From contig CAWBQN010000001.1 in NCBI GenBank assembly GCA_963791065.1, forward strand, positions 3,756 through 67,755: a stretch of 64,000 nucleotides of DNA. The letters run 5' to 3'. The DNA is from an uncultured Bacteroidales bacterium. GTDB taxonomy: Bacteria; Bacteroidota; Bacteroidia; Bacteroidales; VadinHA17. This document shows, piece after piece, positions 1,283-62,167 of this stretch (position 1 is the stretch's first letter; each line of letters begins with the position of its first letter). The position numbers and the translations under genes are program-made. The notes under the pieces are model-generated. The model had not been told where the DNA came from. It searched no databases and saw nothing but the letters and a program-made list of their open reading frames with translations.

Positions 1283-1380
1283 GATTCCATAATTTGGGAT
1301 AAAATTAAGATTTCCAGTCTATAACACAATTGCTGATATCAAATTCTTTCGTGAAATGCTGAAATCCTTTAACCACAAGC

Positions 1381-1552
1381 TGGAGATCCCTCGCTGACGC
1401 TCGGGATGACACGGCTTTAGTTTGGCATAAGGCAAGAAGTGGCGATTCGCAGCAGGATGTCTAAAATTCTGATTGGTGCCTCGAATCGCCACTTCTTGCC
1501 CCTTGTTGTCCCTGGATAAAGTGTCATCCCGAGCGTCAGCGAGGGATCTCCA
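1381..1552. repeat. family A nested inverted-repeat element, copy 1 (about 172 nt)
   Basis: The outer arm 1381-1412 (TGGAGATCCCTCGCTGACGCTCGGGATGACAC) is perfectly complementary to 1521-1552. The inner arm 1431-1449 (GGCAAGAAGTGGCGATTCG) is perfectly complementary to 1482-1500. A homologous copy lies at 38460-38627. Confidence 0.85.
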
Positions 1553-1640
1553 TCTTAATTAACAGTGTTATCTAGATATCGGTATGGTAAATGAACAAAC
1601 GTTAATTAATATTGTAACTGGTTTATCAGGTTGCATCAGT

Positions 1641-2657
1641 ATGGAGAATTACAAGGTAACTACTCTTAATGATTTTATTACTCTGAGACAGAAGGATTTT
1701 CCATATGCAAAAGGAGAGCTTTCCAGTCTGCTGACCCATATCGGCACTGCCGCCAAAATGGTGAATAAAAAGATTAATAAAGCGGGACTGGTTGATATCA
1801 TCGGAAGTGCCGGAGAAGTAAACATCCATGGGGAGAATCAACAGAAGCTCGATGTTTATGCTGATGAAGTATTTATTGGCGCGCTTCTATCCAGCGGGGA
1901 ATGTTGCGGTGTCGCTACAGAAGAGAATGAGAATGAAATTGTATTTTCAGAAACATTTGCATCAAAGGGGAAATATATAGTTTGTATGGATCCCCTCGAT
2001 GGTTCGTCTAATATTGATTTTAATGTCTCAGTAGGAACAATTTTTTCAATCTACAGGAGATTGTCACAACGCGGAGAAAAGGTAAGAAATGAAGATTTTC
2101 TTCAGGAAGGATCAAAACAGGTTGCAGCGGGCTATATTGTCTATGGTTCATCTACAATGCTTGTTTATTCAACAGGCAATGGAGTAAACGGATTTACCCT
2201 GGATCCTTCAATCGGTGAATTTTGTCTCTCTCATCCCTGCATTAAGACACCTGAAGACGGATCGATATACTCAGTGAATGAGGGTAACTATATACATTTT
2301 CCTGACGGAGTAAAAAAGTATATTAAATATTGCCAGGAGAAAGATAAAAAAACCGGCAGACCATATTCATCGAGATATATAGGTTCACTTGTTTCAGATT
2401 TCCACAGAAATCTGCTCAAAGGGGGTATTTTTCTTTATCCGCAAAATGAAAATGCCCCGGGCGGAAAATTAAGACTTGTTTATGAATGTAATCCAATTGC
2501 ATTCATTGCATCACAGGCAGGTGGTACAGCTACCGATGGCAAACGGGATATATTGGAGATAACCCCATCCGCTCTTCATCAACGGTCACCGTTTTATGCA
2601 GGGTCAATAAACATGGTAAGAATGGTTCAGGAATTTCTCAATGCAAATCGCAGATGA
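1641..2657 (+). CDS. fbp: fructose-1,6-bisphosphatase class 1
   Basis: ORF 1584..2657. Motifs [36 protein letters not shown] and NEGN fit class I FBPase. Compared with Bacteroides-type N termini, the ATG at 1641 ([13 protein letters not shown]) is the likelier start. Confidence 0.92.
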
Positions 2658-13630: not shown

Positions 13631-16600
13631 TTAGAAAGTAAGTTTAACACTAAACCCGTAAATCCTTGTAGGAGGAGTCTGATATTCATTAGTATATCCA
13701 ACAGCATTGCTGGTTCCACTCTGGTTATTGAATTCAGGATCGGTCCAAACATTTGATCTCGGACGCAACATAATAAGGTTTCTGCCTACGATACCTACCT
13801 GGGCTTCTTTTATAAAACCGCCCAAAATATTTTTGACAGGTACATTATAATTTAAGGAAATTTCTCTCAGCTTCCAGAAAGCAGCACTTGTCAGGAATGT
13901 ACTCTGGGTACTGTAAAGTGTACTTCCATACCACATCGTACGGGCAGCATTCTTTGTAATAACATTTGTGTTTGGACGATAAGTTGCTGGAGTTTTAACA
14001 CTTCCATCATCATTCAATACCGCTTGTGTGACCCTTATAACAGAATTTGGAATAACAAAATTCTGTCTGCCGTTCTGCGCTGAGAACCATGAAGTACCGG
14101 TGAAATCAAGGGCCTGACCAACAATATTATCAATTACGTTGCCACTTCTGTATTCCGCAACAATATTTAATACAAATCCTTTATAATTAAATGTATTTGT
14201 TAAGCCGAGATTATGATTGGGGTTACCGTGTCCCATGACTTTCGTAGCAGGGTCACTAAGTGGGAAACCTGTCTGTGCATCAACAACTATGTGACCTTGA
14301 GGATCTCTAAGAAAATCAGTAACTTTTATTGCTGGGAACTGCTGACCGACTATTGCATAAGAAACACTTGCAGTATTATTTACATCGGTAATTGCTAATT
14401 CATTCAGTCCGGGAAGGATTGAAATTACCTTGCTTGTGTTGTATGAATAGCTGACCACCATATTCCAGTTAAATTCTCCAATATCAACCAGTGGGTTCAG
14501 TTTAAGGTCAACTTCAGCTCCTTCAGTCTGCAGCTCTCCTGCATTTATATAAGCACTTGCGTAACCGGTCGCATAAGATATTGTTGCAGGAATTGTCTGA
14601 TCTTTCGTGTTTGACTTATAAAGATTGACATCGAGACCAATTCTGCTTTTAAAGAAACCAAGTTCAACACCGGCTTCAATTTCCTGTGTAAGTTCAGGCT
14701 TAAGTAATGGGTTACTCAATGTCGTGCTCAATCTGTACCCGCCGTTGGATCCATATGGAAATCCTGCTCCGGTAGCAAATGAAGGAAGAGTTGCATACCA
14801 GTTTGTCAGAGAGATCTGACCGGTTTTTGACCAGCTGCCTCTAACTTTCGCAAAATTCAGAACTGAATTGTCCTTAAGAACGGGAATTGCGTCAGTCAGT
14901 ACAACGCTTAAATCTATTGCCGGATAAAAGAATGAACGATTAGTTTTTATTAATCTTGAATCCCAGTCATTTCTTCCAGCAGCATGAAGGAATACAAAGT
15001 CCTTATATCCCAGGGTAAAATCACCAAAAAGACCGATTGAATTACGATTTTGTTGGTTTTCATTAGCACCATTACCATCGGCTCCAATTTCACCCAGACG
15101 ATTACTAACATTATATAAGAATGGTATTACTATGGAGTTATTGCCAACATATAGATACCTGTATTTATTCATATACATTGCGTTTCCAAGAATCAGCTTA
15201 CCAGAAAAATCACCAACTTTATGATTCAGCTGGACAAGGAAGTCGCCCGTAAGCACTGTCTGATTGGAAATATTATCATATGATATTCCGGCAAAGGGTG
15301 ATCCTGTTGCATTATGTGATGCCCCCCACGGGTCAGATTTCATATAATCATTATATATTATCCCATCTCTGAAGAAGGTAGCGTTTGTACCGGAATAGAC
15401 CAAACCGGCACGGTATGAAACCGCGATCCAGGGTGCAGGATTTAAGGAAATAAGCGCAGAACCCAGCATGTTATCTACCCTCGTATCATATCTCGAATAA
15501 ATTGTCTGCCAGTAAGGATTAGGATAATAAGCGTTGAAATATCCATTATGATTTGCAAACTTATTATTATTAACGTCTTTATAATTTGTAAGATCAACCT
15601 GGGCTGGAGTATTTAACACGTTCCAGTAAACAGGTCTCCCCTGGAAAGGTTCCGTACCTGATGTACTTGTGTTGGTTTGTGTATAACCAATTGTGTAATC
15701 AGCATGGAATATTCCCGTAGTTCTCGAACCGGCAACCCGGATCCCTGTTCTTCTGTTCTTATCACCCGGAATAGTACCTGTTGAGTTCACATCCTGAGCA
15801 GAAAGATAGAAACTGTTTTTGTCATCACCCACAGAATATGAAATGTCATTCTGGGTGGTGATACCTGTATTAAAAAACTTTTCTTTTCCGTTCTTAACGT
15901 TGCTGTACTTTACAGTCTGGTATGAACCATCAACCAGAACACCTCCAAGTATTACCTCTTGGCCATTAAATTCAGGCCCAAATTGCTGGTTTTCATAAGC
16001 TGTATAGGGATCAGTGTTACGATCGGGGCCAAGCCAGAAGGTATAGTTCGGATTATAGTTGGCGGTATCTTCACTTGAACCTGATCCAAACCTGGTCTGA
16101 AGTTTTGGCAGATAAGATACCTGTTCAAATGTCGTGGTATTGCTTATTTTAATAACAGGCACATTTCCGGAACCTCTTCGCGTAGTTACTACCAAAACAC
16201 CGTTTGAAGCATCATTTCCATAAAGAGAAGAGGCGCTTGCACCTTTCAGTATGTCAACGTTTGCGATGTCATTAGGGTTTATTGAGTTCAGATAACTTGC
16301 ACTTACCGGAATTCCATCGAGTACAACCAGAGCCTGGTTACTCGCCAGGAAGTGACGGTTTCCTCTAAGAGTGATCCTTGTATCGGGGTTAACTCCGTTG
16401 TTAACAGTGTTGATCTGCAGACCTGATACTTTTCCAGTCAAACCGTTCACCACGTTACTAACACCACCTTGTGTAAGCTGTTTATCAGATACTTGAGCAG
16501 TAGCAACACCTAGTTCTTTAGCCTGCCTCTTGATACCAAAGGCCGTTACAACAACTTCATTCAAACCCAGAAGATCGGGTTCCATTATAACATCAATTAC

Positions 16601-16873
16601 TTTACGTCCCCCGATTTCAATTTCCTGTTTTTTCATCCCGATATAGGAGAAAACCAGGGTGGTAGCATTCTGTGGTACTGTAAGTGAATATTTTCCATTC
16701 ACATCTGTAAGGGCACCAACAGTAGTACCTTTAACAGTAATAGTTACACCAGGAATTGCACCTTCCCCTTGAACTGAAGAGGTAACCGTACCTGTAATGA
16801 CTATTGTCTGTGCAAATAAAGTGTAACCACTTATAAACACAGACAAAACAATCAGCAGAAATAGTTTCTTCAT
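13631..16873 (-). CDS. SusC/RagA-family TonB-dependent outer-membrane transporter
   Basis: 1080 aa with a signal peptide. It has a CarboxypepD_reg-like N terminus (TGTVTSS..GEGAIPGVTITVKGT), a plug (VVVTAFGIKRQ, DILKGASASSLYG) and a C-terminal ..YGFSVKLTF. Confidence 0.95.
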   Translation of the reverse strand: MKKLFLLIVLSVFISGYTLFAQTIVITGTVTSSVQGEGAIPGVTITVKGTTVGALTDVNGKYSLTVPQNATTLVFSYIGMKKQEIEIGGRKVIDVIMEPDLLGLNEVVVTAFGIKRQAKELGVATAQVSDKQLTQGGVSNVVNGLTGKVSGLQINTVNNGVNPDTRITLRGNRHFLASNQALVVLDGIPVSASYLNSINPNDIANVDILKGASASSLYGNDASNGVLVVTTRRGSGNVPVIKISNTTTFEQVSYLPKLQTRFGSGSSEDTANYNPNYTFWLGPDRNTDPYTAYENQQFGPEFNGQEVILGGVLVDGSYQTVKYSNVKNGKEKFFNTGITTQNDISYSVGDDKNSFYLSAQDVNSTGTIPGDKNRRTGIRVAGSRTTGIFHADYTIGYTQTNTSTSGTEPFQGRPVYWNVLNTPAQVDLTNYKDVNNNKFANHNGYFNAYYPNPYWQTIYSRYDTRVDNMLGSALISLNPAPWIAVSYRAGLVYSGTNATFFRDGIIYNDYMKSDPWGASHNATGSPFAGISYDNISNQTVLTGDFLVQLNHKVGDFSGKLILGNAMYMNKYRYLYVGNNSIVIPFLYNVSNRLGEIGADGNGANENQQNRNSIGLFGDFTLGYKDFVFLHAAGRNDWDSRLIKTNRSFFYPAIDLSVVLTDAIPVLKDNSVLNFAKVRGSWSKTGQISLTNWYATLPSFATGAGFPYGSNGGYRLSTTLSNPLLKPELTQEIEAGVELGFFKSRIGLDVNLYKSNTKDQTIPATISYATGYASAYINAGELQTEGAEVDLKLNPLVDIGEFNWNMVVSYSYNTSKVISILPGLNELAITDVNNTASVSYAIVGQQFPAIKVTDFLRDPQGHIVVDAQTGFPLSDPATKVMGHGNPNHNLGLTNTFNYKGFVLNIVAEYRSGNVIDNIVGQALDFTGTSWFSAQNGRQNFVIPNSVIRVTQAVLNDDGSVKTPATYRPNTNVITKNAARTMWYGSTLYSTQSTFLTSAAFWKLREISLNYNVPVKNILGGFIKEAQVGIVGRNLIMLRPRSNVWTDPEFNNQSGTSNAVGYTNEYQTPPTRIYGFSVKLTF

Positions 16874-16905
16874 ACGATAGTAGTTTTAGGTTTTAATTTA
16901 ACAGC

Positions 16906-20879: not shown

Positions 20880-23800
20880 CTAGAATGTAATTTTTAAATT
20901 CACACCAAATCTTCTTGAAGTAGGCGCACACGAAAGATCGATACCCTGTACATTACTTGAACCATAATTATTAATCTCAGGATCGAAATTCGTATGAGTA
21001 GGAACATTGGGAGCAAAATACCATAAATTACGGCCTGTTACACTAATGTTGATTCTGCCAATTTTTGCTTTTTGTATCCATTTTTTTGGAAGATCATATC
21101 CAATAGAGACTTCTCTTAAACGATAAACAGTAGCATCATATATGTTAAATTCAGCGGCTGAATTTATAGCAAAAGTAGTTTCAGTACCTCCACCATAAAA
21201 ATATAAATCATTTGTAGTAATCCCTGTACGGTTTGCAATTGGATTCCCATTACCATCCAGCAGAAGGTCTCCCTGGGCATTTCCATAAACACCTGGAATT
21301 ATCCAGCTATGTTCCCTGTCTTCGGTATCTTTGGTAACGCCCCTGCCTAATAAAGAAGCAATAGTCACACTGTAGACGTCCCCACCTTGTCTCCAATCCC
21401 ATAAAGCACTCAGAGTAAACCCTTTATATGAGATAGTATTTGTTATACCCATAATGAAATCGGGATTTGGATCACCGATAATTTTCTCATCCGGCAGCTA
21501 AATAAGGGAATCCGGTAACCGGATCAATAATCATATTGACCGTTATGCATCTCTTAAAGCATAGCTACCTCTGAAAGATCCATAGCCATAACCGGGTTCA
21601 ATAACCGGAGTAACACCAGATTCCCAAATCAGCCAGGTTAAGCCTTTCAACTCCCTGATATTAAGGATACTACTTCACTTTTATTTTTTGTAAAAGAGGT
21701 GTAAATTTCCCATTTTAAGCCACTGGGTAATTGGAGAGGAACCAGGTTTAAACCAATTTCAATACCTTTGTTTCTCATTGATCCAAAATTCAGATACCTG
21801 ATAATAATAACCCACTTGCACTTGGTACTGGAACAGGAGCAATCATATCATTTGAAAGTTTATTATACCAGGTAAAATCTAACCCAATGCGTCCATTAAA
21901 AACTGAAGTTCAGTACCTAATTCAGTTTCAGCGGATCTTTCAGGTTTCAAGACTCGGGTTATTCCTGGGTATTGGGAGTAGTAAGTGTAAATTTCCCACC
22001 AAAAGGATCGCCAAGATAAAATACGTTTGTCAAGGAATAAGGATCTGCATCATTTCCTACCTGTGCATAGCTGGCACGGATTTTACCTAAACTTAATATA
22101 TCACTCTTTATCCCCAGAGCATCAGTAAAAATGAAAGAAGTACTGACTGCAGGATAGAAATAACTTCTGTTTGATACCGGAAGAGTTGATGACCAGTCAT
22201 TACGTCCAACAAGGTTCAGGATATAACCAGTTCTTATAAGAAAGGGAAATATCAGCAAAAACAGCATATAACCGTCTTTGTGTGAAATACCACCGAGCTA
22301 ATGGTACCAGATCTCTTGTATTGGTGATATTATAAATTCCGGGAACCATGATTACCTTGCCATCGTAAGCCTGTCTTTTTGTTGTCCGCTGGTTCACATT
22401 ATGACCCAAAATAGCTTTTATACTGAAATCCTCACCTAACTGATGAGCAAGAGTTAACAATAAACTTGATTCAATTTCGCGCTTATTATAGTTATCTTCC
22501 TTGATTTCACCTGTCGTTGCAGCAGCTCTTGAACCAATATCAGTAACTTCCCTGCGGTTCAGCTGAATATTATTCATCCCTAAAGAATAAGAAAGGTTCA
22601 ACCAGCTGTTAAAGTTATAATCCATATTAATTCCGGCCACTGTTCTGTCGGTATTGGTTGTTATAGTATTATGTCTGTAAGACCATAATGGATTATCAAA
22701 CTGGTTGCCAAGAGCAGAAACGGGCCATCCATTTACCGGGATTTTCAAAAGGCAATTTCATATCCCAGTCTCTCCCTAAGAAAAGAGAACGGGCGAATGA
22801 AGAAGCAGCACCGGTAAACTGGTTTTCACCGAAGAACCCACCCACCTGCTTTGTACTGGAAAATGAAAGATTTCCACCAACATTAAGGCCATTATTAAGT
22901 TTACTTCTGCCCCCTACACTTACACTGTATCTGTCAAAGTTAGATTCGGGAATATAACCATCCTGGTTTAAAGCTGAAGCAGTTGAACTGAACGAATTTT
23001 TTGCATCGCCTCCTGAAATGGAAAGAGAGTTTTCATATATAGTACCTGTCTTGAATAAATCCTTGACGTTATTAGGTTGTGCCTGGTATTTCATATTACC
23101 CGATGAAGGAAATAATTTTGGAAATGCATTCAGGTAATCGGGCCATACAGGAATTGAATCCTGTGAATCAAAACGTGATCCCCATGAACCATTCGAGTTT
23201 GCATAGGTGAAATTGGATCCATTGCCGTATGTGTTCTGATAATCGGGCAAATTGGCAATAGTCTCTTTTGCTATTGATGTATTAACAGTAACTTCAAGAC
23301 CTCTTGTTCCTTCTCCGCCTTTTCCTGATTTTGTAGTAATAAGAAGTACCCCATTGGAGGCTCTTGATCCATACAAAGCAGCAGCAGCGGAACCTTTCAG
23401 TACTGTAAGGGTTTCAATGTTATTCGGATCTAATGTACTTAAGCCGCTGGAATAAGCACCCCCTGTACCGGTTGTTTGACTTGAGGTTGCAACCTGGTCA
23501 TTGCTGTAAGGTACACCATCAACAACAATCAGAGGTTGGTTATTACCAAAAAATGAGGAACTACCGCGGATAGTGATATTTGAAGCAGCTCCCGGAGCTC
23601 CCTGTCCAACACGGATATCAACACCAGGAACTTTCCCCTGCAATGCTTTCAGCATATCTGGTTCAGATTTTTCCTGTGTCTTATCGGCACTGACTGTGAC
23701 TACAGAATAGCCCACAGATTTTGCGGAACGCTGAATACCAACAGCTGTAACAACAACTTCATCCAAACCAAGAAGATCGGGTTCCATAGCAACATCAATT

Positions 23801-24076
23801 ACTTTTCGGCCCCGGATTTCAACTTCCTGTCTTTTCATCCCAATATAGGAGAAAATAAGGGTTGTAGCACTCTGTGGAGCCTCAAGTGAAAATTTTCCAT
23901 TCACATCTGTAATGCGCACCGAGAGTTGTGCCTTTAACAGTTATAGTTACCCCGGGAATTGCACCCTCCCCCTGAACAGAAGAGGTAACCGTACCTGTAA
24001 TGATTATTGTCTGCGCCATCAAAGTGAAACCACTTACAAACACAAACGAGACAATCAGCAGAATAAGTTTCTTCAT
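20880..24076 (-). pseudogene. SusC/RagA-family TonB-dependent transporter gene split by many frameshifts
   Basis: Fragments 23882..24076, 22696..23919, 22200..22748, 21959..22267 and 20880..21452 are collinear with the intact SusC paralog. Manual translation of 21453-21958 gives further in-order pieces (LKPERSAETELGTELQF, RIGLDFTWYNKLSNDMIAP, NFGSMRNKGIEIGLNLVP) in shifting frames. Confidence 0.85.
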
Positions 24077-24121
24077 ACGAGTTAAGATTTAGGTTTAGTA
24101 AATCAAATAGGTTTAGGATAT

Positions 24122-38132: not shown

Positions 38133-38310
38133 ACGATTTACAGCAGTCGTTTTAAGTCAATTTTTCAACAATTGAGGTGAATTACAGTTCAGGAAATGCC
38201 GCAATCCTGCAGCAGCTAAAATATTTAGCTGATTAAATGATAATTACAATTTCATGAAAAATGTTGATAAATGCATGAAAGAACATTTCACTCTAAAATC
38301 TAATGAACTC

Positions 38311-38395
38311 ACCCCCCGTCCCCCTTCTAATTCTTAGAGAGGGGGTGTAATGCATTGAATACTAATTAATTTCCCCCTCCCTCTTTACGAATTAG
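38311..38395. repeat. family B C-run/G-run mini-hairpin element, copy 3
   Basis: ACCCCCCGTCCCCCTTCTAATTCTTAGAGAGGGGGTG, then a spacer, then TTTCCCCCTCCCTCTTTACGAATTAG. Confidence 0.6.
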
Positions 38396-38459
38396 CTATT
38401 CTTTATACACATCGTTAATGTAAATTGGAATTATCAGAATTAATTACTGGTCATTTGCA

Positions 38460-38627
38460 GGAGATTCCTCACTTCGTTCGGAATGACAATTTTTTTAAGT
38501 GGTTAAGGGAAGAAGCGGCGATTCGACCAAAAATTAGAATAAATTATGCAATTATCTTCGAATCGCCGCTTCTTCCTCCCTGTTCCTCAGATAAAACGTG
38601 TCATCCCGAACGAAGTGAGGGATCTCC
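38460..38627. repeat. family A nested inverted-repeat element, copy 2 (about 168 nt)
   Basis: The outer arms are 38460-38488 and 38599-38627 (29 nt, 2 non-Watson-Crick positions). The inner arms 38508-38526 and 38558-38576 are perfect (19 nt). It is homologous to 1381-1552. Confidence 0.85.
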
Positions 38628-38901
38628 AAGATGCTTCACGAAAATTTATCATATTAAGCCCCTTCAGGGCTTGATATTAGAGAGTTATGCCAACACCTGG
38701 CTGGCGCCGGAGGCTATTTATAATTGGCTCTTTCAGAGCCAAGCCAATGAAAGACGTGTATAGAGAATAGCTTTTAAAGGAAGTGAAACGTATCGGGCTT
38801 AAATTCAATACATTACATCTAGTTTTGTACTTGACTCTCTCCATATTCTACTGTATTCAACTCCTTAGGTTGATGGCTAAGGGGTTAAAGGTGTGAATCC
38901 A

Positions 38902-44965: not shown

Positions 44966-45011
44966 TAAAAATCTATAGTATTAAACTCTAATTAAAATAA
45001 GGTAGATAAAT

Positions 45012-45040
45012 GTAGAGACAGGTCTGAGACCTGTCTCTAC
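45012..45040. terminator. family C 29-nt palindrome, probable terminator after the PAP2 gene
   Basis: GTAGAGACAGGTCTGAGACCTGTCTCTAC is identical to 62131-62159. It starts 7 nt after the PAP2 gene stop (minus strand). Confidence 0.7.
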
Positions 45041-45046
45041 CAAAAT

Positions 45047-46632: not shown

Positions 46633-46649
46633 ATATTATTATTATTATT

Positions 46650-46721
46650 CTCTGTGGCTCTCTGTGTCTCCTCTGTGGCCCTCTGTGTAACAAAAAAGAA
46701 CTCACACAGAGTTACACAGAG
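46650..46721. repeat. family D back-to-back heptamer arrays (CTCTGTG x4, spacer, CACAGAG x2)
   Basis: CTCTGTG occurs at 46650, 46660, 46671 and 46681. Then come TAAC-A6GAACT and CACAGAG at 46705 and 46715. CTCTGTGTAAC and GTTACACAGAG can pair. Confidence 0.8.
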
Positions 46722-46725
46722 ATAA

Positions 46726-49554: not shown

Positions 49555-49608
49555 AATCCATTAACCGCAAATTAAGTAATAAAATCAAATTCTATTTTGA
49601 AGAACTTA

Positions 49609-49645
49609 CACAGAGAGACACAGAGAATCACAGAGTTACACAGAG
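49609..49645. repeat. family D heptamer array, 5' flank of the GxxExxY gene (CACAGAG x4, exact 10-nt period)
   Basis: CACAGAG occurs at 49609, 49619, 49629 and 49639. The array ends 17 nt before the ATG at 49663. Confidence 0.85.
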
Positions 49646-49662
49646 AATATAAAAATAATATT

Positions 49663-50034
49663 ATGGAATTGAATGAAATCACAAGAAGAATTATAGGATG
49701 TGCAATTGAAGTACATAAGAGCCTCGGACCAGGATTGCTTGAATCAGCATATGAGGAATGTCTCTCCTATGAACTTATTAAAAACGGATTGAATATTAAA
49801 AGGCAACAACCAACTCCTGTAGTGTACAAAGATATAAAACTGGAATGTGGTTACAGGATCGATATTTTAGTAGAGAATTCCGTAGTTGTTGAACTAAAAG
49901 TCGTTGACGAATTTAATCCAGTTCATGAAGCTCAGATTCTTACTTATATGAAGTTTTCAAACAAATCAATTGGTTTATTGATCAACTTTAATGTTACGGT
50001 TTTAATAAATGGAATCAAAAGATATAGATTTTGA
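49663..50034 (+). CDS. GxxExxY protein (small PD-(D/E)XK-fold family)
   Basis: 123 aa from the ATG at 49663: [34 protein letters not shown].. (G-LL-E-SA-Y), ..[16 protein letters not shown]. The track start at 49597 only translates the heptamer array. Confidence 0.85.
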
Positions 50035-50076
50035 ATCTGTGGTTCTCTGTGGATACTCTGTGCAACTCTGTGTAAC
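50035..50076. repeat. family D heptamer array, 3' flank of the GxxExxY gene (CTCTGTG-type x4 + TAAC)
   Basis: ATCTGTG at 50035 and CTCTGTG at 50045, 50056 and 50066 start immediately after the stop codon. This array is the reverse complement of the 5' array. Confidence 0.85.
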
Positions 50077-50116
50077 CAAAGATATCTTCTTTATTTCTAG
50101 TAAATTATCTCAATTA

Positions 50117-52087
50117 ATGACAAAGCATGTAATAATTATTTTTCTAATTCTATTCCCGTCAGTTGCTATTGGTCAGGAAACAACTAATTCAGAATTGATC
50201 ATCAGTATTGCAGAAGAACTCGCCGCAGATGACTCCGATCCCGACGCGGTTACTGCCTTTGTAGATAAGCTAAATGAACTCACTGAGAATCCTGTAAAAA
50301 TCAACTCTTCGAGTGAAAATGAAATATCCCGGTTATTCTTCCTTTCTGATTTCCAGGTAAAAGCTCTTGCAGAATATACTCATTCTTCAGGACCGGTCGT
50401 CTCGGTATATGAAATTGCTGCAATCCCCGGATTTGACAGGGAAACGGTGGAGATGATCATTCCTTTCATCACTCTTGAGAATAAGCTGGTGATTGATTCA
50501 GATTCTGTCCGGTGGAGAAACACCTTGATATCAAATTTCTCACTGAAATCAGGAAATAACAATTCAGCTTATTTAGGCACATTATGGAAAATCCTGACAA
50601 AATACAAATTCACTGCCACCGGATTTTCAGGAGGAATGACGATTGAGAAAGATCCGGGAGAAAAGCTGCTTTCCGGCACTCCTCCTCTCCCCGATTTCTT
50701 ATCGGCATACCTTTCATATAAAGGAAGAGGAGTGATTAAAAGAATCATTGTCGGCGACTATTCCGCCAGATTCGGACAGGGTTCAAATTTAAACACCGGT
50801 ATCCGCAGAGGAGTTTCTCTTACAACTCCGGGCTATATGTCGGCCAGCGATGAGATTGTTCCCTATTCCTCAACCGAAGAAAACAGGTTTCTAAGAGGTA
50901 TTGCAGCTGAGCTTTCCCTCAGAAGTCTTGGAATATCAGTATATTTTTCAAAAAACTTCTCTGATGCTACAATTAACACTCCATCAGACCCGCAGAATAA
51001 TTTCATTGAAAGTCTATACGCTGGAGGACTCCACAACACACCCTCACTTCTCAAAAAAAAAGATGCGGTTTCTATAGTATCTTATGGATTATCATGTTCG
51101 TACAACTTTAATAATCTGAAGGTTGGGCTGGCGTGGACAGAAAACCGGCTCTCACTTCCCATATTAGTGACAATAATTGATCCTGAAAAGATCTACTCTT
51201 TTACAGGCCACAGTAACAGTCTCTATACCGTCTATTACAATAGTTTTATCAGGAAGATCCTGCTTTTTGGTGAATTATCGTTAAATAATTATAACAGGAT
51301 CGCTCTCATTCAGGGAATGTCTTTCAGGCCGTCAGACAGGTTATCAATCAATCTTCTGTTCAGAAACTATAGTGCCGGTTATACAACTTTCTATGGCCAG
51401 GGACCCGGATCCGGTTCAAAGACCAGCAACGAATGCGGGATACTGGGAAATTTTACATTCGAAGCTGCCAGACATCTGTTCATAAGCGCCGGATGTGACG
51501 TTTATAATTTCCCGTGGCTAAAGTACCGGTGCAGTGCTCCTTCTCGTGGAGTAAAGAAAGAACTAAAAGTCAGATATTTACCGACAGAAAAACTCATTTT
51601 TGATGCTTCATACGATTACCGGTTCTCTATGGCAGATAGTGCAGAAGGTCAGGGAATCCCGGCTCAAATGATGCTTATAACCAGCAGTTTAAGAGCATGT
51701 GCCCGTTATATTGTTAATGACAATCTGACTCTCGGTACAAGAGCCGACTTTAAAAAAGCTGATCCTTCGGGAAGCAAAGGTATGATGCTGTTTCAGGAAT
51801 TAAGTTACCGTTTTACGAAGATTCCGGTTACGGTCTGGGCCAGGTTTTGCCTTTTCAATACTACCAGCTGGGATTCCAGAATATACACATATGAAAATGA
51901 TCTGTTATACAGCTACAGTATACCTGCCTTATCAGGAGAAGGAAGCCGGAGCTATTTTATGGTCAAATGGTCAGTCAGAGGCCGGGCAGAGCTAAGAATA
52001 AAATACGCGATTACCTCTCTGATATCGAATGATAAATCATCTCCGGATACCGATGAAATTAAAATGCAGTTCAGGGTTGCGTTTTAG
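50117..52087 (+). CDS. helix-hairpin-helix domain protein with a large predicted OM beta-barrel
   Basis: I prefer the start at 50117 (MTKHVIIIFLILFPSVAIGQ, a signal peptide). It has a ComEA-like HhH (FQVKALAEYTHSSGPVVSVYEIAAIPGFDRETVEMI), then about 500 aa of beta-strand-rich sequence ending ..MQFRVAF. Confidence 0.6.
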   Translation: MTKHVIIIFLILFPSVAIGQETTNSELIISIAEELAADDSDPDAVTAFVDKLNELTENPVKINSSSENEISRLFFLSDFQVKALAEYTHSSGPVVSVYEIAAIPGFDRETVEMIIPFITLENKLVIDSDSVRWRNTLISNFSLKSGNNNSAYLGTLWKILTKYKFTATGFSGGMTIEKDPGEKLLSGTPPLPDFLSAYLSYKGRGVIKRIIVGDYSARFGQGSNLNTGIRRGVSLTTPGYMSASDEIVPYSSTEENRFLRGIAAELSLRSLGISVYFSKNFSDATINTPSDPQNNFIESLYAGGLHNTPSLLKKKDAVSIVSYGLSCSYNFNNLKVGLAWTENRLSLPILVTIIDPEKIYSFTGHSNSLYTVYYNSFIRKILLFGELSLNNYNRIALIQGMSFRPSDRLSINLLFRNYSAGYTTFYGQGPGSGSKTSNECGILGNFTFEAARHLFISAGCDVYNFPWLKYRCSAPSRGVKKELKVRYLPTEKLIFDASYDYRFSMADSAEGQGIPAQMMLITSSLRACARYIVNDNLTLGTRADFKKADPSGSKGMMLFQELSYRFTKIPVTVWARFCLFNTTSWDSRIYTYENDLLYSYSIPALSGEGSRSYFMVKWSVRGRAELRIKYAITSLISNDKSSPDTDEIKMQFRVAF

Positions 52088-62115: not shown

Positions 62116-62130
62116 AATTATGTTAAAAGT

Positions 62131-62159
62131 GTAGAGACAGGTCTGAGACCTGTCTCTAC
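62131..62159. terminator. family C 29-nt palindrome, bidirectional terminator between convergent genes
   Basis: GTAGAGACAGGTCTGAGACCTGTCTCTAC is identical to 45012-45040. It lies between the lysS stop (62115) and the ABC gene stop (62168). Confidence 0.7.
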
Positions 62160-62167
62160 CATTAATG

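What the first reader, a model, noticed from the sequence alone, without database searches (positions are those of the whole stretch)
1381..1552. Nested-hairpin element of about 170 nt, present twice, with compensatory changes that preserve both stems
Seen, copy 1 (1381-1552): a 32-bp perfect outer stem and a 19-bp perfect inner stem.

Seen, copy 2 (38460-38627): a 29-bp outer stem with 2 non-Watson-Crick positions, and a 19-bp perfect inner stem.

The copies are clearly homologous. They share the termini GGAGAT(C/T)CCTC...CGG(G/A)ATGACA, the inner AAGAAG(T/C)GGCGATTCG, and similar spacers ending ..GATAAA.

Where the copies differ, the partner arm changes in step:
- Outer block: GCTGACGCT/AGCGTCAGC in copy 1 versus ACTTCGTT/AACGAAGT in copy 2.
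- Inner stem: T:A in copy 1 versus C:G in copy 2.

The central loops are unrelated. I found no obvious target-site duplication.

Inference: selection, or a copying mechanism, maintains the fold rather than the sequence. This argues for a structured RNA or a hairpin-DNA (REP/BIME-like) element rather than a classical TIR-MITE. Copy 1 sits in the divergent lysC/fbp promoter region and copy 2 upstream of parE, so effects on expression are possible.
Basis: partly seen in the sequence, partly recalled or inferred. Interest (0 to 1): 0.62.

Follow-up and report, generated by a model that had tools for sequence, protein, structure and literature searches.

The report
Nested REP-like hairpin DNA repeat
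The two ~170-base nested hairpins are copies of a selfish palindromic DNA repeat family (REP/REPIN/BIME-like) of an uncultured Bacteroidales genus, not an RNA gene, and their "compensatory" changes come from paired inverted hairpin units and an inner stem whose two arms evolve in concert.

Summary
Both copies exist as described and fold far better than shuffles (z about -14).

They are two of about 26 copies in this 4.35-Mb Bacteroidales genome. The same composite occurs in 13 of 25 genomes of the genus.

Each copy has two inverted 29-30-nt palindromic units (GGAG-ATYCC-TC-apex-TC-GGRAT-GACA) around a conserved 19-25-bp inner hairpin.
- The unit alone occurs in 33 of 301 sampled genomes of the order. 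Its own 5-bp foot covaries.
- The inner stem shows strong covariation: 11 of 19 pairs have double changes, with 0/500 shuffles as high.
- The long outer stem is not conserved. About half of the composites pair unlike units.
- Loops and interiors occur in both orientations.

These features point to a DNA-level repeat, not a structured RNA. No Rfam family matched, and copy 1 lies upstream of both neighbouring promoter blocks.

IS200-like Y1 (HUH) transposase elements are tied to the family. One inserts at the same unit position in all five copies. Another carries homologous subterminal hairpins, and its terminal inverted repeats (TIRs) bound the MITE-like shells around most copies, including copy 2.

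Mobilisation by a Y1 enzyme is inferred, not shown. This is a new member of a known kind, of moderate interest.

The parts
1381..1552 (.). Copy 1: 'bare' composite (unit - spacer - inner hairpin - spacer - inverted unit). The palindrome extends to 1377-1556.
1382..1411 (+). Copy 1, left unit: GGAG-ATCCC-TC-GCTGACGC-TC-GGGAT-GACA.
1431..1500 (.). Copy 1, inner hairpin: arms 1431-1449 and 1482-1500 (perfect 19 bp), loop 1450-1481.
1522..1551 (-). Copy 1, right unit. Same subtype as the left unit, inverted; the TGTC tag faces inward.
38460..38627 (.). Copy 2: composite with the ACTTCGT apex in both units.
38460..38488 (+). Copy 2, left unit: foot ATTCC/GGAAT.
38508..38576 (.). Copy 2, inner hairpin: arms 38508-38526 and 38558-38576 (perfect 19 bp). 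A private T:A to C:G double change relative to the other ACTTCGT-type copies.
38599..38627 (-). Copy 2, right unit: foot ATCCC/GGGAT. Both foot bases are changed together, which produces the two mismatches of the long outer stem.
38396..38770 (.). 375-nt TIR-bounded MITE-like shell that hosts copy 2. The TIRs are 38396-38412 (CTATTCTTTATACACAT) and 38754-38770. The left part matches the type-A shell (96% over 48 nt). The right part is collinear with the left end of the type-2 Y1 element.
38656..38741 (.). Three small hairpins of the shell, matching in order those of the type-2 Y1 element end: 38656-38672 (AAGCCC..GGGCTT), 38696-38713 (degenerate GCTGGCGC-apex hairpin) and 38725-38741 (GGCTC..GAGCC).

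Best explanation
What it is. The element is a dispersed, non-coding, DNA-level palindromic repeat of the REP/REPIN/BIME kind.

Building block. The basic module is a 29-30-nt imperfect hairpin unit, 5'-GGAG | ATYCC | TC | apex | TC | GGRAT | GACA-3'. It has a 5-bp foot, a conserved 2x2 TC/TC mismatch and a variable small apex stem-loop. The unpaired tags are GGAG and GACA (TGTC on the other strand).

Composite. Two units in inverted orientation, with their TGTC tags facing inward, flank a conserved 19-25-bp inner hairpin. That gives the ~170-nt nested hairpin. The long outer stem exists only because the two units are inverted copies of each other.

What is shown:
- The family is multi-copy and patchy among related genomes.
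- Copies occur bare, inside TIR-bounded shells, in tandem arrays and truncated.
- The unit foot and the inner stem keep their pairing through many double changes.
- Loops and interiors flip.
- IS200-like Y1 elements are physically tied to the units.

What is inferred:
- The composite is copied as single-stranded DNA by an HUH/Y1 (IS200/IS605-type, subclass 1.2) transposase. The enzyme would recognise the unit hairpin plus its tag, as RAYT enzymes are thought to do for REPINs, and would insert without target duplication.
- Arm complementarity persists for two reasons. Only copies with intact hairpins are re-copied, and inverted repeats correct each other in place. Correction would act through template switching or gene conversion between the arms, as in quasipalindrome correction (established in E. 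coli; my own knowledge).
- Any effect on neighbouring genes is incidental.
For: 1. Family.
- About 26 composites in G000 carry the inner hairpin (covariance model R1 gives 51 hits on two strands).
- The strict pattern gave 62 hits, about 58 of them judged genuine units. The looser pattern gave 84 hits, many of them chance; 47 of these flank an inner hairpin with the tag facing it.
- Tandem unit arrays lie at C13:33073-35071 and C19:45187-45440.
- Type-B copies are a median 98% identical, which indicates recent amplification.

2. Distribution.
- The composite is in 13 of 25 genomes of the genus and essentially absent from 16 other families.
- The unit is in 33 of 301 genomes and 25 of 208 genera of the order. 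The reversed-pattern control gave 0.

3. Insertion.
- Copy 1 is absent from the orthologous lysC-fbp spacer of six same-genus genomes, where other repeats sit.
- No target-site duplication was found.

4. Unit hairpin.
- With both foot positions left free, 71 of 71 units are C/G or T/A.
- In 58 distinct units from other genomes, the two foot pairs are Watson-Crick in 54/58 and 55/58 (Fisher 1e-11 and 4e-10, not corrected for phylogeny).
- All four foot variants occur, plus ATTGC/GCAAT.
- The foot pair is kept even when the two units of one composite differ (copy 2, C19:45049, G007f/g).

5. Inner stem.
- 39 distinct sequences are 97.5% paired.
- 11 of 19 pairs and 41 cells show double changes, with 0/500 shuffles as high. 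Slid controls are 39-55% paired.
- 48 copies carry about 20 different stems and only 8 mismatches in total.

6. DNA-level behaviour.
- The loop is inverted in 2 of 10 type-B copies.
- In type A, C2:9196 has its spacers swapped relative to the flanks.
- C18:371458 was not classified by the script; its loop, read as the reverse complement, resembles that of C2:9196, so I judge it inverted.

7. Y1 link.
- There are seven Y1_Tnp genes.
- All five type-1 copies interrupt a unit at ...GCTGGCGC^TCGGGAT..., in two different composite subtypes.
- The joined flanks restore a canonical unit.
- The same junction is seen in other species (L009, L030, G007e).
- The type-2 element (C13:52727-53483) has inverted subterminal hairpins ACCCCCAGC-GCCA-GCTGGGGGT. 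I count 17 of 22 bases identical to the unit, including the apex (my own alignment of the sequences shown).
- Its 17-nt TIR bounds the type-A and type-B shells.

8. Literature.
- REPINs show the same logic, including compensatory changes and a 'clover' versus long-hairpin fold (PMC3116915).
Against: - No Y1 gene is flanked on both sides by canonical units.
- Neither type-1 nor type-2-like genes co-occur with composite copy number across the genus. G005, G019 and G002 have type-1 but no composites. G006 has about 16 composites but no type-1.
- In other unit-rich genomes no Y1 gene lies beside the units, and G316 has units but no Y1 gene at all.
- The literature reports subclass 1.2 Y1 enzymes without REPs (PMC6006769).
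- The literature also reports CGTC/TGTC-tagged REPs without a dedicated transposase (PMC3733652).
- The isolated unit hairpin is thermodynamically weak: -3.9 and -1.5 kcal/mol as DNA, no better than shuffles.
- No clean filled-versus-empty site pair was obtained.
- Transcription could not be examined.
- The shuffle and Fisher tests do not correct for shared descent among copies.
Confidence: 0.7

Rival explanations
1. Structured non-coding RNA. The nested hairpin is a transcribed RNA, such as an sRNA, an mRNA stabiliser or terminator, or a transposon-associated guide-type RNA. Its fold would be selected at the RNA level.
For: - Very stable predicted folds.
- Strong covariation in the inner stem and the unit foot.
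- REPs elsewhere can act in mRNA (PMC3733652).
Against: - No Rfam family reaches threshold in the window.
- Perfect 19-32-bp helices and complete tolerance of unrelated or inverted loops are atypical of functional RNAs.
- G.U (8) is about as frequent as A.C (7) among mismatches.
- The long outer stem is absent in heterodimer copies.
- Copy 1 sits between divergent genes, upstream of both conserved promoter-proximal blocks.
- No terminator-like T tract is present.
- Copies occur in both orientations and in tandem unit arrays.
Confidence: 0.07
2. Ordinary TIR-MITE. The repeat would be moved by cut-and-paste by a DDE transposase that recognises the terminal inverted repeats. These could be the GGAGATCCCTC ends of the composite or the CTAATCTTTCATCACAT ends of the shells.
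For: - Most copies lie in TIR-bounded shells of 290-375 nt.
- One shell (C2:9196) is flanked by a 9-nt direct repeat, TTACGAAGT.
Against: - Bare composites have no target-site duplication.
- Other shells have no consistent duplication. Their flanks are inverted, not direct.
- Within 6 kb, the only coding elements bounded by these TIRs are the type-2 Y1 element and a shell that carries the type-1 IS. No DDE gene was found.
- The unit is an internally pairing hairpin with covariation, which a double-stranded TIR does not need.
Confidence: 0.08
3. Host-maintained structural site. The units would be binding or processing sites for a host protein, in the way REPs bind gyrase or IHF in E. coli, or landing pads for mobile elements. 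They would spread mainly by recombination and duplication, not by a dedicated transposase.
For: - The unit is distributed across the order without an adjacent transposase.
- The tags and the TC/TC mismatch are conserved.
- The unit is the specific insertion site of the type-1 IS.
- CGTC-type REPs are reported to lack a transposase.
Against: - Presence is patchy and copy number ranges from 0 to about 26 within one genus.
- Near-identical recent copies lie at unrelated loci.
- Copy 1 is absent from orthologous spacers.
- Truncated and nested copies occur.

All of these are typical of selfish amplification.
Confidence: 0.15

Closest known systems
REPINs (REP doublets forming hairpins) with RAYT transposases, Pseudomonas and E. 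coli (Bertels & Rainey 2011, PMC3116915)
   Same: - Short palindromic units are arranged mostly as inverted doublets with a spacer.
- Both a long-hairpin fold and a 'clover' fold are possible.
- Compensatory changes are common.
- Higher-order tandem clusters occur.
- Copy number is patchy between relatives.
- Y1/HUH genes are in the picture.
   Different: - The tags are GGAG and TGTC, not GTAG.
- A sequence-conserved inner hairpin replaces a loosely conserved spacer.
- No single-copy RAYT is flanked by the units.
- The linked Y1 proteins score as IS200-like (54-55 bits), not as RAYT (20-23 bits against a cut-off of 80).
- About half of the doublets are heterodimers.
CGTC-tagged REP superfamily (Di Nocera et al. 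2013, PMC3733652); includes Neisseria dRS3 and Rickettsia RPE-4/6
   Same: By the paper's text definition:
- An unpaired terminal tag, with TGTC an accepted variant.
- A stem of 8-9 positions that starts with A-T and T-A.
- A loop of 4-5 nt (here TGGC).
- A short unpaired tail.
- Frequent dimers, some with structured spacers.
- Found in Bacteroidetes.
- No dedicated transposase known.
   Different: - The tail is CTCC, not CCA.
- Two central stem positions are mismatched (TC/TC).
- The tags face inward ('TT' dimers, which are rare in CGTC families).
- The figure with the family consensus is not held, so sequence-level membership is untested.
BIMEs of E. coli (mosaics of REP/PU units with conserved extra-PU motifs)
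   Same: - Mosaic, modular combinations of inverted palindromic units, conserved inter-unit motifs and variable parts.
- Unit subtypes are combined as homo- or heterodimers.
   Different: - The sequences are unrelated and the phylum is different.
- A host-protein binding role (IHF, gyrase; my own knowledge) was not examined here.
TIRtrons / TIRYT (Y1 transposase genes flanked by long TIRs that are themselves members of repeat families; Di Nocera 2013, PMC3733652)
   Same: - The type-2 Y1 element (C13:52727-53483) is bounded by a 17-nt TIR.
- That TIR also bounds 20 or more gene-less shells, including the one around copy 2.
- The element carries inverted subterminal hairpins.
   Different: - The protein belongs to Quentin's subclass 1.2 (148 aa, Y---Q--HH), not to the HTH-bearing subclass 2.1 where most TIRYTs fall (PMC6006769).
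- The shells additionally carry the nested REP-like composite.
REP-targeting insertion sequences (IS1397/ISKpn1 into E. coli/Klebsiella REP loops; IS110-family elements into Pseudomonas or Neisseria REPs). My own knowledge, not checked here.
   Same: The type-1 IS sits at one exact position of the unit (apex/3'-foot junction, GC^TC) in all 5 of its copies and in other species.
   Different: Here the targeting element is an IS200-like Y1 element, not an IS3- or IS110-family element. Its left end starts with a mimic of the displaced unit half (TACTAATGACA against TCGGGATGACA).

Membership tests
REP / REPIN | Short (20-40 nt) imperfect palindrome, many dispersed extragenic copies | tested here: met
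   - About 58 units of 29-30 nt in G000.
- 71 strict matches in 10 related genomes.
REP / REPIN | Units occur mainly as inverted doublets with a spacer and can form one long hairpin | tested here: met
   - 47 units flank an inner hairpin in the inverted arrangement.
- Folds.
REP / REPIN | Compensatory changes keep the hairpin | tested here: met
   - Inner stem: 11 of 19 pairs have double changes, with 0/500 shuffles as high.
- Unit foot: 54/58 and 55/58 Watson-Crick.
REP / REPIN | GTAG tag next to the hairpin foot | tested here: not met
   The tags are GGAG (5') and GACA (3'), which reads TGTC on the other strand.
REP / REPIN | A cognate, usually single-copy RAYT gene flanked by the same REPs | tested here: inconclusive
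   - No Y1 gene has canonical units on both sides.
- Type-1 interrupts a unit.
- Type-2 has homologous but distinct hairpins.
- Y1 genes do not co-occur with the repeat.
CGTC-tagged REPs (Di Nocera 2013) | Unpaired terminal CGTC tag (TGTC or CCTC allowed) | tested here: met
   TGTC lies directly before the foot, as in TGTC-ATCCCGAGC-GCCA-GCGAGGGAT-CTCC.
CGTC-tagged REPs (Di Nocera 2013) | Stem of 8-9 bp that starts with complementary A/T at positions 1 and 2; loop of 4-5 nt | tested here: inconclusive
   - There are nine stem positions starting A-T and T-A, and a 4-nt loop in GCTGGCGC-type units.
- Positions 6-7 are TC/TC mismatches.
- ACTTCGT-type units have a 3-nt loop.
CGTC-tagged REPs (Di Nocera 2013) | Short unpaired tail near CCA; head-to-head dimers predominate | tested here: not met
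   - The tail is CTCC.
- The tags face inward, which is the 'TT' class in that paper's terms.
CGTC-tagged REPs (Di Nocera 2013) | Match to the published family consensus (Figure 2 of the paper) | not testable with these tools
   Figures are not held. Only the text was read.
TIR-MITE moved by a DDE transposase | Target-site duplication and a DDE transposon with the same TIRs | tested here: not met
   - No target-site duplication at bare copies.
- Flanks of the shells are inverted, not direct, except in one case.
- No DDE gene lies between TIR pairs within 6 kb.
Rfam RNA families | Covariance-model hit at the gathering score | tested here: not met
   0 matches in the 64-kb window.
Y1 HUH transposases, subclass 1.2 (Quentin 2018). 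Applies to the linked proteins, not to the repeat. | About 148 aa, HuH motif [DNE]H[IV]H, Y---Q--HH motif, Bacteroidetes/Cyanobacteria | tested here: met
   - Type-1: DHIH, WQ, YILNQKKHH, 148 aa.
- Type-2: NHIH, YVKNQQYHH, 148 aa.
- Compared with Table 1 and the text of the paper.
- PF01797 scores 62-79 bits.
TIRtron / TIRYT. Applies to the type-2 element and the shells. | Y1 gene flanked by TIRs that are members of a repeat family in the same genome | tested here: met
   - The TIR CTAATCTCTCGTCACAT / ATGTGATATAAGATTAG lies at C13:52727-53483.
- The same TIR bounds about 20 shells.

The most novel reading that the evidence does not exclude
The unit may be a TGTC-tagged member of the CGTC REP superfamily. 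The enzyme that moves that superfamily has been an open question since 2013. In this genus its partners may be subclass-1.2 Y1 HUH enzymes, a subclass described as lacking REPs and IS-like ends. Two roles are proposed:
- A type-2 'TIRtron', whose subterminal hairpins are homologous to the unit, would mobilise the composites and shells.
- The type-1 element would use the unit apex as a sequence- and structure-specific integration site in single-stranded DNA.

If so, this would give CGTC-type REPs a testable transposase. It would also show a three-hairpin (clover) substrate for an HUH enzyme.
Probability: 0.2. Interest if true: 0.65.

Novelty: new member of a known kind. Interest (0 to 1): 0.4.

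Why it matters
- It removes a false lead. The nested hairpin is not a new riboregulator of lysC, fbp or parE. The ORFs that run through it are most likely spurious: window 1319-1492 on the minus strand, and 38425-38763 on the plus strand.
- It documents a REP/REPIN-like system in soil and peat Bacteroidales, with clean natural covariation data on two hairpin modules.
- It shows a unit-specific IS200-like insertion.
- It points to a link with Y1 subclass 1.2 and with TGTC-tagged REPs. Both are poorly understood groups, and the link can be tested with simple ssDNA binding and cleavage assays.
- For assembly and annotation, the family explains contig breaks. For example, contig C18 starts inside a unit.

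Tried and rejected
- Rfam at gathering thresholds on the whole window: no hit.
- Conspecific empty site: two exact-flank scans of metagenome contigs found nothing. Orthologous spacers in six same-genus genomes are too diverged and hold other repeats, so exact insertion boundaries could not be read.
- REP-RAYT style co-occurrence:
  - Y1 genes are nearly ubiquitous (35 of 41 genomes).
  - Type-1 presence does not track unit or composite counts.
  - No Y1 gene lies next to units in nine unit-rich genomes of other families.
- Stability of the isolated unit hairpin: not better than shuffles. The case for the unit stem therefore rests on covariation only.
- Target-site duplications: none at bare copies; one 9-nt repeat at a single shell (C2:9196); otherwise inverted GC-rich flanks.
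- A longer transposon bounded by the shell TIRs: none within 6 kb apart from the Y1 elements.
- Exact unit strings in the paper library: only chance hits in unrelated papers.
- Considered and rejected without tests: CRISPR (the 56-nt arrays have identical 'spacers'), attC sites, and snap-back palindromes of the whole element (spacers and linkers are not palindromic).
Full report
**1. Observation**

Both copies are in the sequence as described.

Copy 1:
- The outer arms 1381-1412 and 1521-1552 are exact reverse complements (32 bp).
- The palindrome runs on to 1377-1556 with one mismatch.
- The inner arms 1431-1449 and 1482-1500 are a perfect 19 bp.

Copy 2:
- The outer arms 38460-38488 and 38599-38627 are 29 bp, with mismatches at arm positions 7 and 23.
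- The inner stem 38508-38526 / 38558-38576 is a perfect 19 bp.

Folding:
- Predicted folds are -120.3 and -89 kcal/mol.
- The z-scores are -14.2 and -13.5, and no shuffle did as well.
- Chance is excluded.

- An aspartokinase-like gene runs leftward from 1282.
- An FBPase gene runs rightward.
- A GyrB/ParE-type gene and an amino-acid permease lie around copy 2.

**2. It is a family, not a pair**

The window is contig C1:3756-67755 of a 4.35-Mb, 27-contig, 40% G+C genome. Relatives are named 'Bacteroidales bacterium' MAGs from fen, peat and soil.

BLAST, motif and hairpin scans found 25 composites with the inner motif, plus a diverged one at C6:284540. A covariance model of the inner hairpin (R1) gives 51 hits on two strands, about 26 loci.

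The arms are copies of one 29-30-nt unit, GGAGATYCCTC - apex - TCGGRATGACA. There are about 58 units in the genome. The apex types are:

| Apex | Units |
|---|---|
| ACTTCGT | 20 |
| GCTGGCGC | 16 |
| GCTGACGC | 4 |
| GCTAACGC | 4 |
| 38-nt apex, itself an ATTCCTC...TCGGAAT core | 10 |

Subfamilies:
- Type A has the ACTTCGT apex in both units. Copy 2 belongs here.
- A GCTGRCGC homodimer group includes copy 1, C19 and three copies on C13.
- Type B has 10 copies of about 203 nt. One unit has an 8-nt apex and the other has the 38-nt apex.

Tandem arrays of the unit also occur: a 56-nt period at C13:33073-35071 and a 102-nt period at C19.

**3. What is conserved is not the long outer stem**

With both foot positions left free in the search pattern, all 71 units found in ten genomes have C/G or T/A.

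Across the order, the unit occurs in 33 of 301 sampled genomes (25 of 208 genera). The reversed-pattern control found none. In 58 distinct units from those other genomes, the two variable foot pairs are Watson-Crick in 54/58 and 55/58 (Fisher 1e-11 and 4e-10, uncorrected for descent). The foot variants ATTCC/GGAAT, ATCCC/GGGAT, ATCCT/AGGAT and ATTCT/AGAAT all occur, and ATTGC/GCAAT occurs in this genome.

The apex is free to vary:
- It can be GC..GC or AC..GT.
- It can be a 7-bp extra stem such as GTCCGCC/GGCGGAC.
- It can be a long palindrome.

The TC/TC mismatch and the tags GGAG and GACA stay fixed.

The pairing is within a unit. In copy 2, C19:45049, G007f and G007g the two units of one composite carry different foot variants. 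Each unit stays self-complementary while the long outer stem takes two mismatches.

About half of all composites are heterodimers: all type-B copies, and G007a, c, d, G016a and G003a. A continuous 29-32-bp outer helix is therefore not a conserved feature.

**4. The inner stem really does covary**

Forty-eight copies from nine or more genomes carry about 20 different inner stems of 17-25 bp. Together they have only 8 mismatches.

On 39 distinct sequences:

| Measure | Observed | Control |
|---|---|---|
| Cells paired | 97.5% | 89.7% in shuffles; 39-55% when the partner is slid |
| Pairs with double changes | 11 of 19 | shuffle mean 3.2; 0/500 shuffles as high |
| Cells with double changes | 41 | shuffle mean 4.7; 0/500 shuffles as high |

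Private double changes exist: copy 2 has T:A to C:G, C17:51072 has C:G to T:A, and copy 1 has G:C to C:G.

Among the non-standard cells, G.U (8) is no commoner than A.C (7). Neither strand therefore looks like a selected RNA.

**5. DNA-level signatures**

- With type B oriented by its asymmetric units, the 33-nt loop is in one orientation in eight copies and in the reverse complement in two.
- With type A oriented by its flanks, C2:9196 has its two spacers swapped.
- The script left C18:371458 unclassified. Its loop, read as the reverse complement, resembles that of C2:9196, so I judge it inverted.
- Loops are unrelated between subfamilies and can be as short as 4-8 nt (G003a-c, SPRUCE188).
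- Truncated and internally deleted copies exist.
- Type-B copies are a median 98% identical.
- The composite model finds from 0 to about 26 loci per genome in 13 of 25 genomes of the genus. It finds nothing convincing in 16 other families.
- Copy 1 is missing from the orthologous lysC-fbp spacer of six same-genus genomes. Those genomes carry a different (CTCTGTG/CACAGAG) repeat there, or nothing.
- The alignment places copy 1 between the two conserved promoter-proximal blocks. It also shows that fbp probably starts at 1641.
- No target-site duplication flanks bare copies here or in relatives.

**6. Shells**

Most copies lie inside larger TIR-bounded elements:
- Type A is about 330 nt (CTACCCTTTATACACAT...).
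- Type B is about 296 nt (CTAATCTTTCATCACAT...).

Copy 2 lies in a 375-nt shell, window 38396-38770:
- Its left part is 96% identical to the type-A shell.
- Its right part is collinear, hairpin by hairpin, with the left end of a Y1 element.

Copy 1 is bare. Conserved orthologous sequence reaches to within a few bases of its left end, so there is no room for a shell.

**7. Y1 transposases**

The genome has seven PF01797 genes.

Type-1 element (about 880 nt, 148-aa protein):
- It has five copies: three intact, one with a stop codon and one truncated.
- It always interrupts a unit at GGAGATCCCTCGCTGGCGC^[IS]^TCGGGATGACA.
- It does so in two different composite subtypes, and the joined flanks restore a normal unit.
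- The same junction occurs in other species (L009, L030, G007e).
- It is found only in GC-apex units, never in the 20 ACTTCGT units.
- I read it as an IS200-like element that integrates at the apex/3'-foot junction of the unit.
- Its left end begins with TACTAATGACA, a mimic of the displaced TCGGGATGACA.

Type-2 element (C13:52727-53483):
- It is bounded by the shell TIR.
- It carries inverted subterminal hairpins ACCCCCAGC-GCCA-GCTGGGGGT. By my own alignment, 17 of 22 bases are identical to the unit, including the whole apex, and the hairpin is fully paired (-11.8 kcal/mol).
- Relatives in the genus have the same layout, with apex variants that also occur in units, such as GCTGCGC and GCGAAGC.
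- A gene-less derivative lies at C5:34284-34725.

Classification:
- Both proteins fit Quentin's subclass 1.2 (148 aa, Y---Q--HH). That subclass is described as low-copy, lacking IS200-type ends and lacking REPs (PMC6006769).
- NCBIfam scores them as IS200-like (54-55 bits) and not as RAYT (20-23 bits against a cut-off of 80).

**8. Limits of the transposase link**

- Neither type co-occurs with the repeat. G005, G019 and G002 have type-1 and no composites. G006 has about 16 composites and no type-1. Type-2-like genes are almost everywhere.
- In unit-rich genomes of other families, no Y1 gene lies beside the units.
- The isolated unit folds weakly.
- 'Mobilised by a Y1 HUH enzyme on single-stranded DNA' is therefore an inference. 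It rests on architecture, homology of the hairpins, shared TIRs, lack of duplications and the absence of any other candidate. I put it near 45%.
- I hold the broader statement, a DNA-level REP/REPIN/BIME-like selfish repeat, at about 80%.

**9. Comparison with what is known**

- REPINs have the same logic, including common compensatory changes and alternative long-hairpin and 'clover' folds (PMC3116915).
- By its text definition, the unit resembles the CGTC/TGTC-tagged REP superfamily. That superfamily occurs in Bacteroidetes and 'apparently lacks a dedicated transposase' (PMC3733652). The tail and the dimer orientation differ, and the consensus figure could not be read.
- The type-2 element with its shells fits the TIRtron/TIRYT concept of the same paper.
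- No paper in the library contains the unit sequence.
- Earlier notes from this scan describe other REP/RAYT-like and nested-hairpin systems in Bacteroidales. I used them only as context.

**10. Not done**

- Conspecific empty sites were not found.
- A phylogeny-aware covariation test and biochemical tests were not run.

**Verdict**

The RNA alternative is unsupported. The 'compensation' has two sources:
- real concerted evolution, in the inner stem and the unit foot;
- an artefact of pairing two identical units, in the outer block.

This is a new member of a known kind.

Noticed in passing
window 45008-45042 and 62127-62161: A 35-nt hairpin repeat, AAATGTAGAGACAGGTCTGAGACCTGTCTCTACCA, with a 13-bp stem. 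There are two copies 17 kb apart, 97% identical. This is another small palindromic repeat family (D9/I3).
   Followed up: no
window 16533-16893 and 23735-24096: A direct repeat of about 360 nt at 85-86% identity, 7.2 kb apart (D1/D2). It probably reflects paralogous genes.
   Followed up: no
window about 38300-38350: CTCACCCCCCGTCCCCCTTCTAATTCTTAGAGAGGGGGTGTAATGCA is a further dispersed repeat. Nearly the same sequence lies beside the type-A element at G000 C2:9196. Different repeat families cluster next to each other.
   Followed up: partly
Orthologous lysC-fbp spacers: L100 (G007), L102 (G016), L103 (G010): In place of copy 1, relatives carry back-to-back CTCTGTG/CACAGAG heptamer arrays. This is the repeat type that earlier notes describe at window 46633-46725 and 49561-50117. 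The spacer is therefore a hot spot for different repeat families.
   Followed up: partly
G000 C13:33073-35071 and C19:45187-45440: - On C13, head-to-tail arrays of the 30-nt unit have an identical 26-nt spacer (56-nt period). The pattern occurs three times, and each array ends in a composite.
- On C19, the unit plus a 72-nt spacer is repeated three times.
   Followed up: partly
G000 C17:309335-309676 (L007): A third, divergent Y1 gene (30% identical to type-1) follows a ComM/Mg-chelatase-like gene. About 30 nt of that gene's 3' end is duplicated on both sides of the insert.
   Followed up: no
Flanks of the TIR shells, for example G000 C5:202587-202882, C17:4484-4772 and C18:35614-35909: Outside the TIRs lie inverted GC-rich motifs (CCCCTCCTTTTGAAGG ... 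CCTTCAAAAGGAGGGG, or CCCCCTAAAG ... CCCCCTTTAGGGG). They form a fourth nesting level. This is either a longer terminal repeat or insertion into small GC hairpins.
   Followed up: partly
window 1584-1643: The mechanical ORF for FBPase starts at 1584. Orthologues align only from the ATG at 1641 (ATGGAGAATTACAAGGTAACTAC). A conserved non-coding block at 1591-1623 looks like the promoter region.
   Followed up: partly
window 1319-1492 (minus strand) and 38425-38763 (plus strand): ORFs of 57 and 112 codons run through the repeats. They are most likely spurious, and gene callers could annotate them as hypothetical proteins.
   Followed up: no
L122 (G005 C19:91000-93000) and L015: Type-1-like Y1 genes in composite-free genomes sit among arrays of small GC hairpins (GCCCC-TGAC-GGGGC, AGGCC-GTA-GGCCT, GCTCC-TAC-GGAGC). 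These hairpins also occur inside the type-1 element ends here. They may be the REP-like partners of that enzyme.
   Followed up: no
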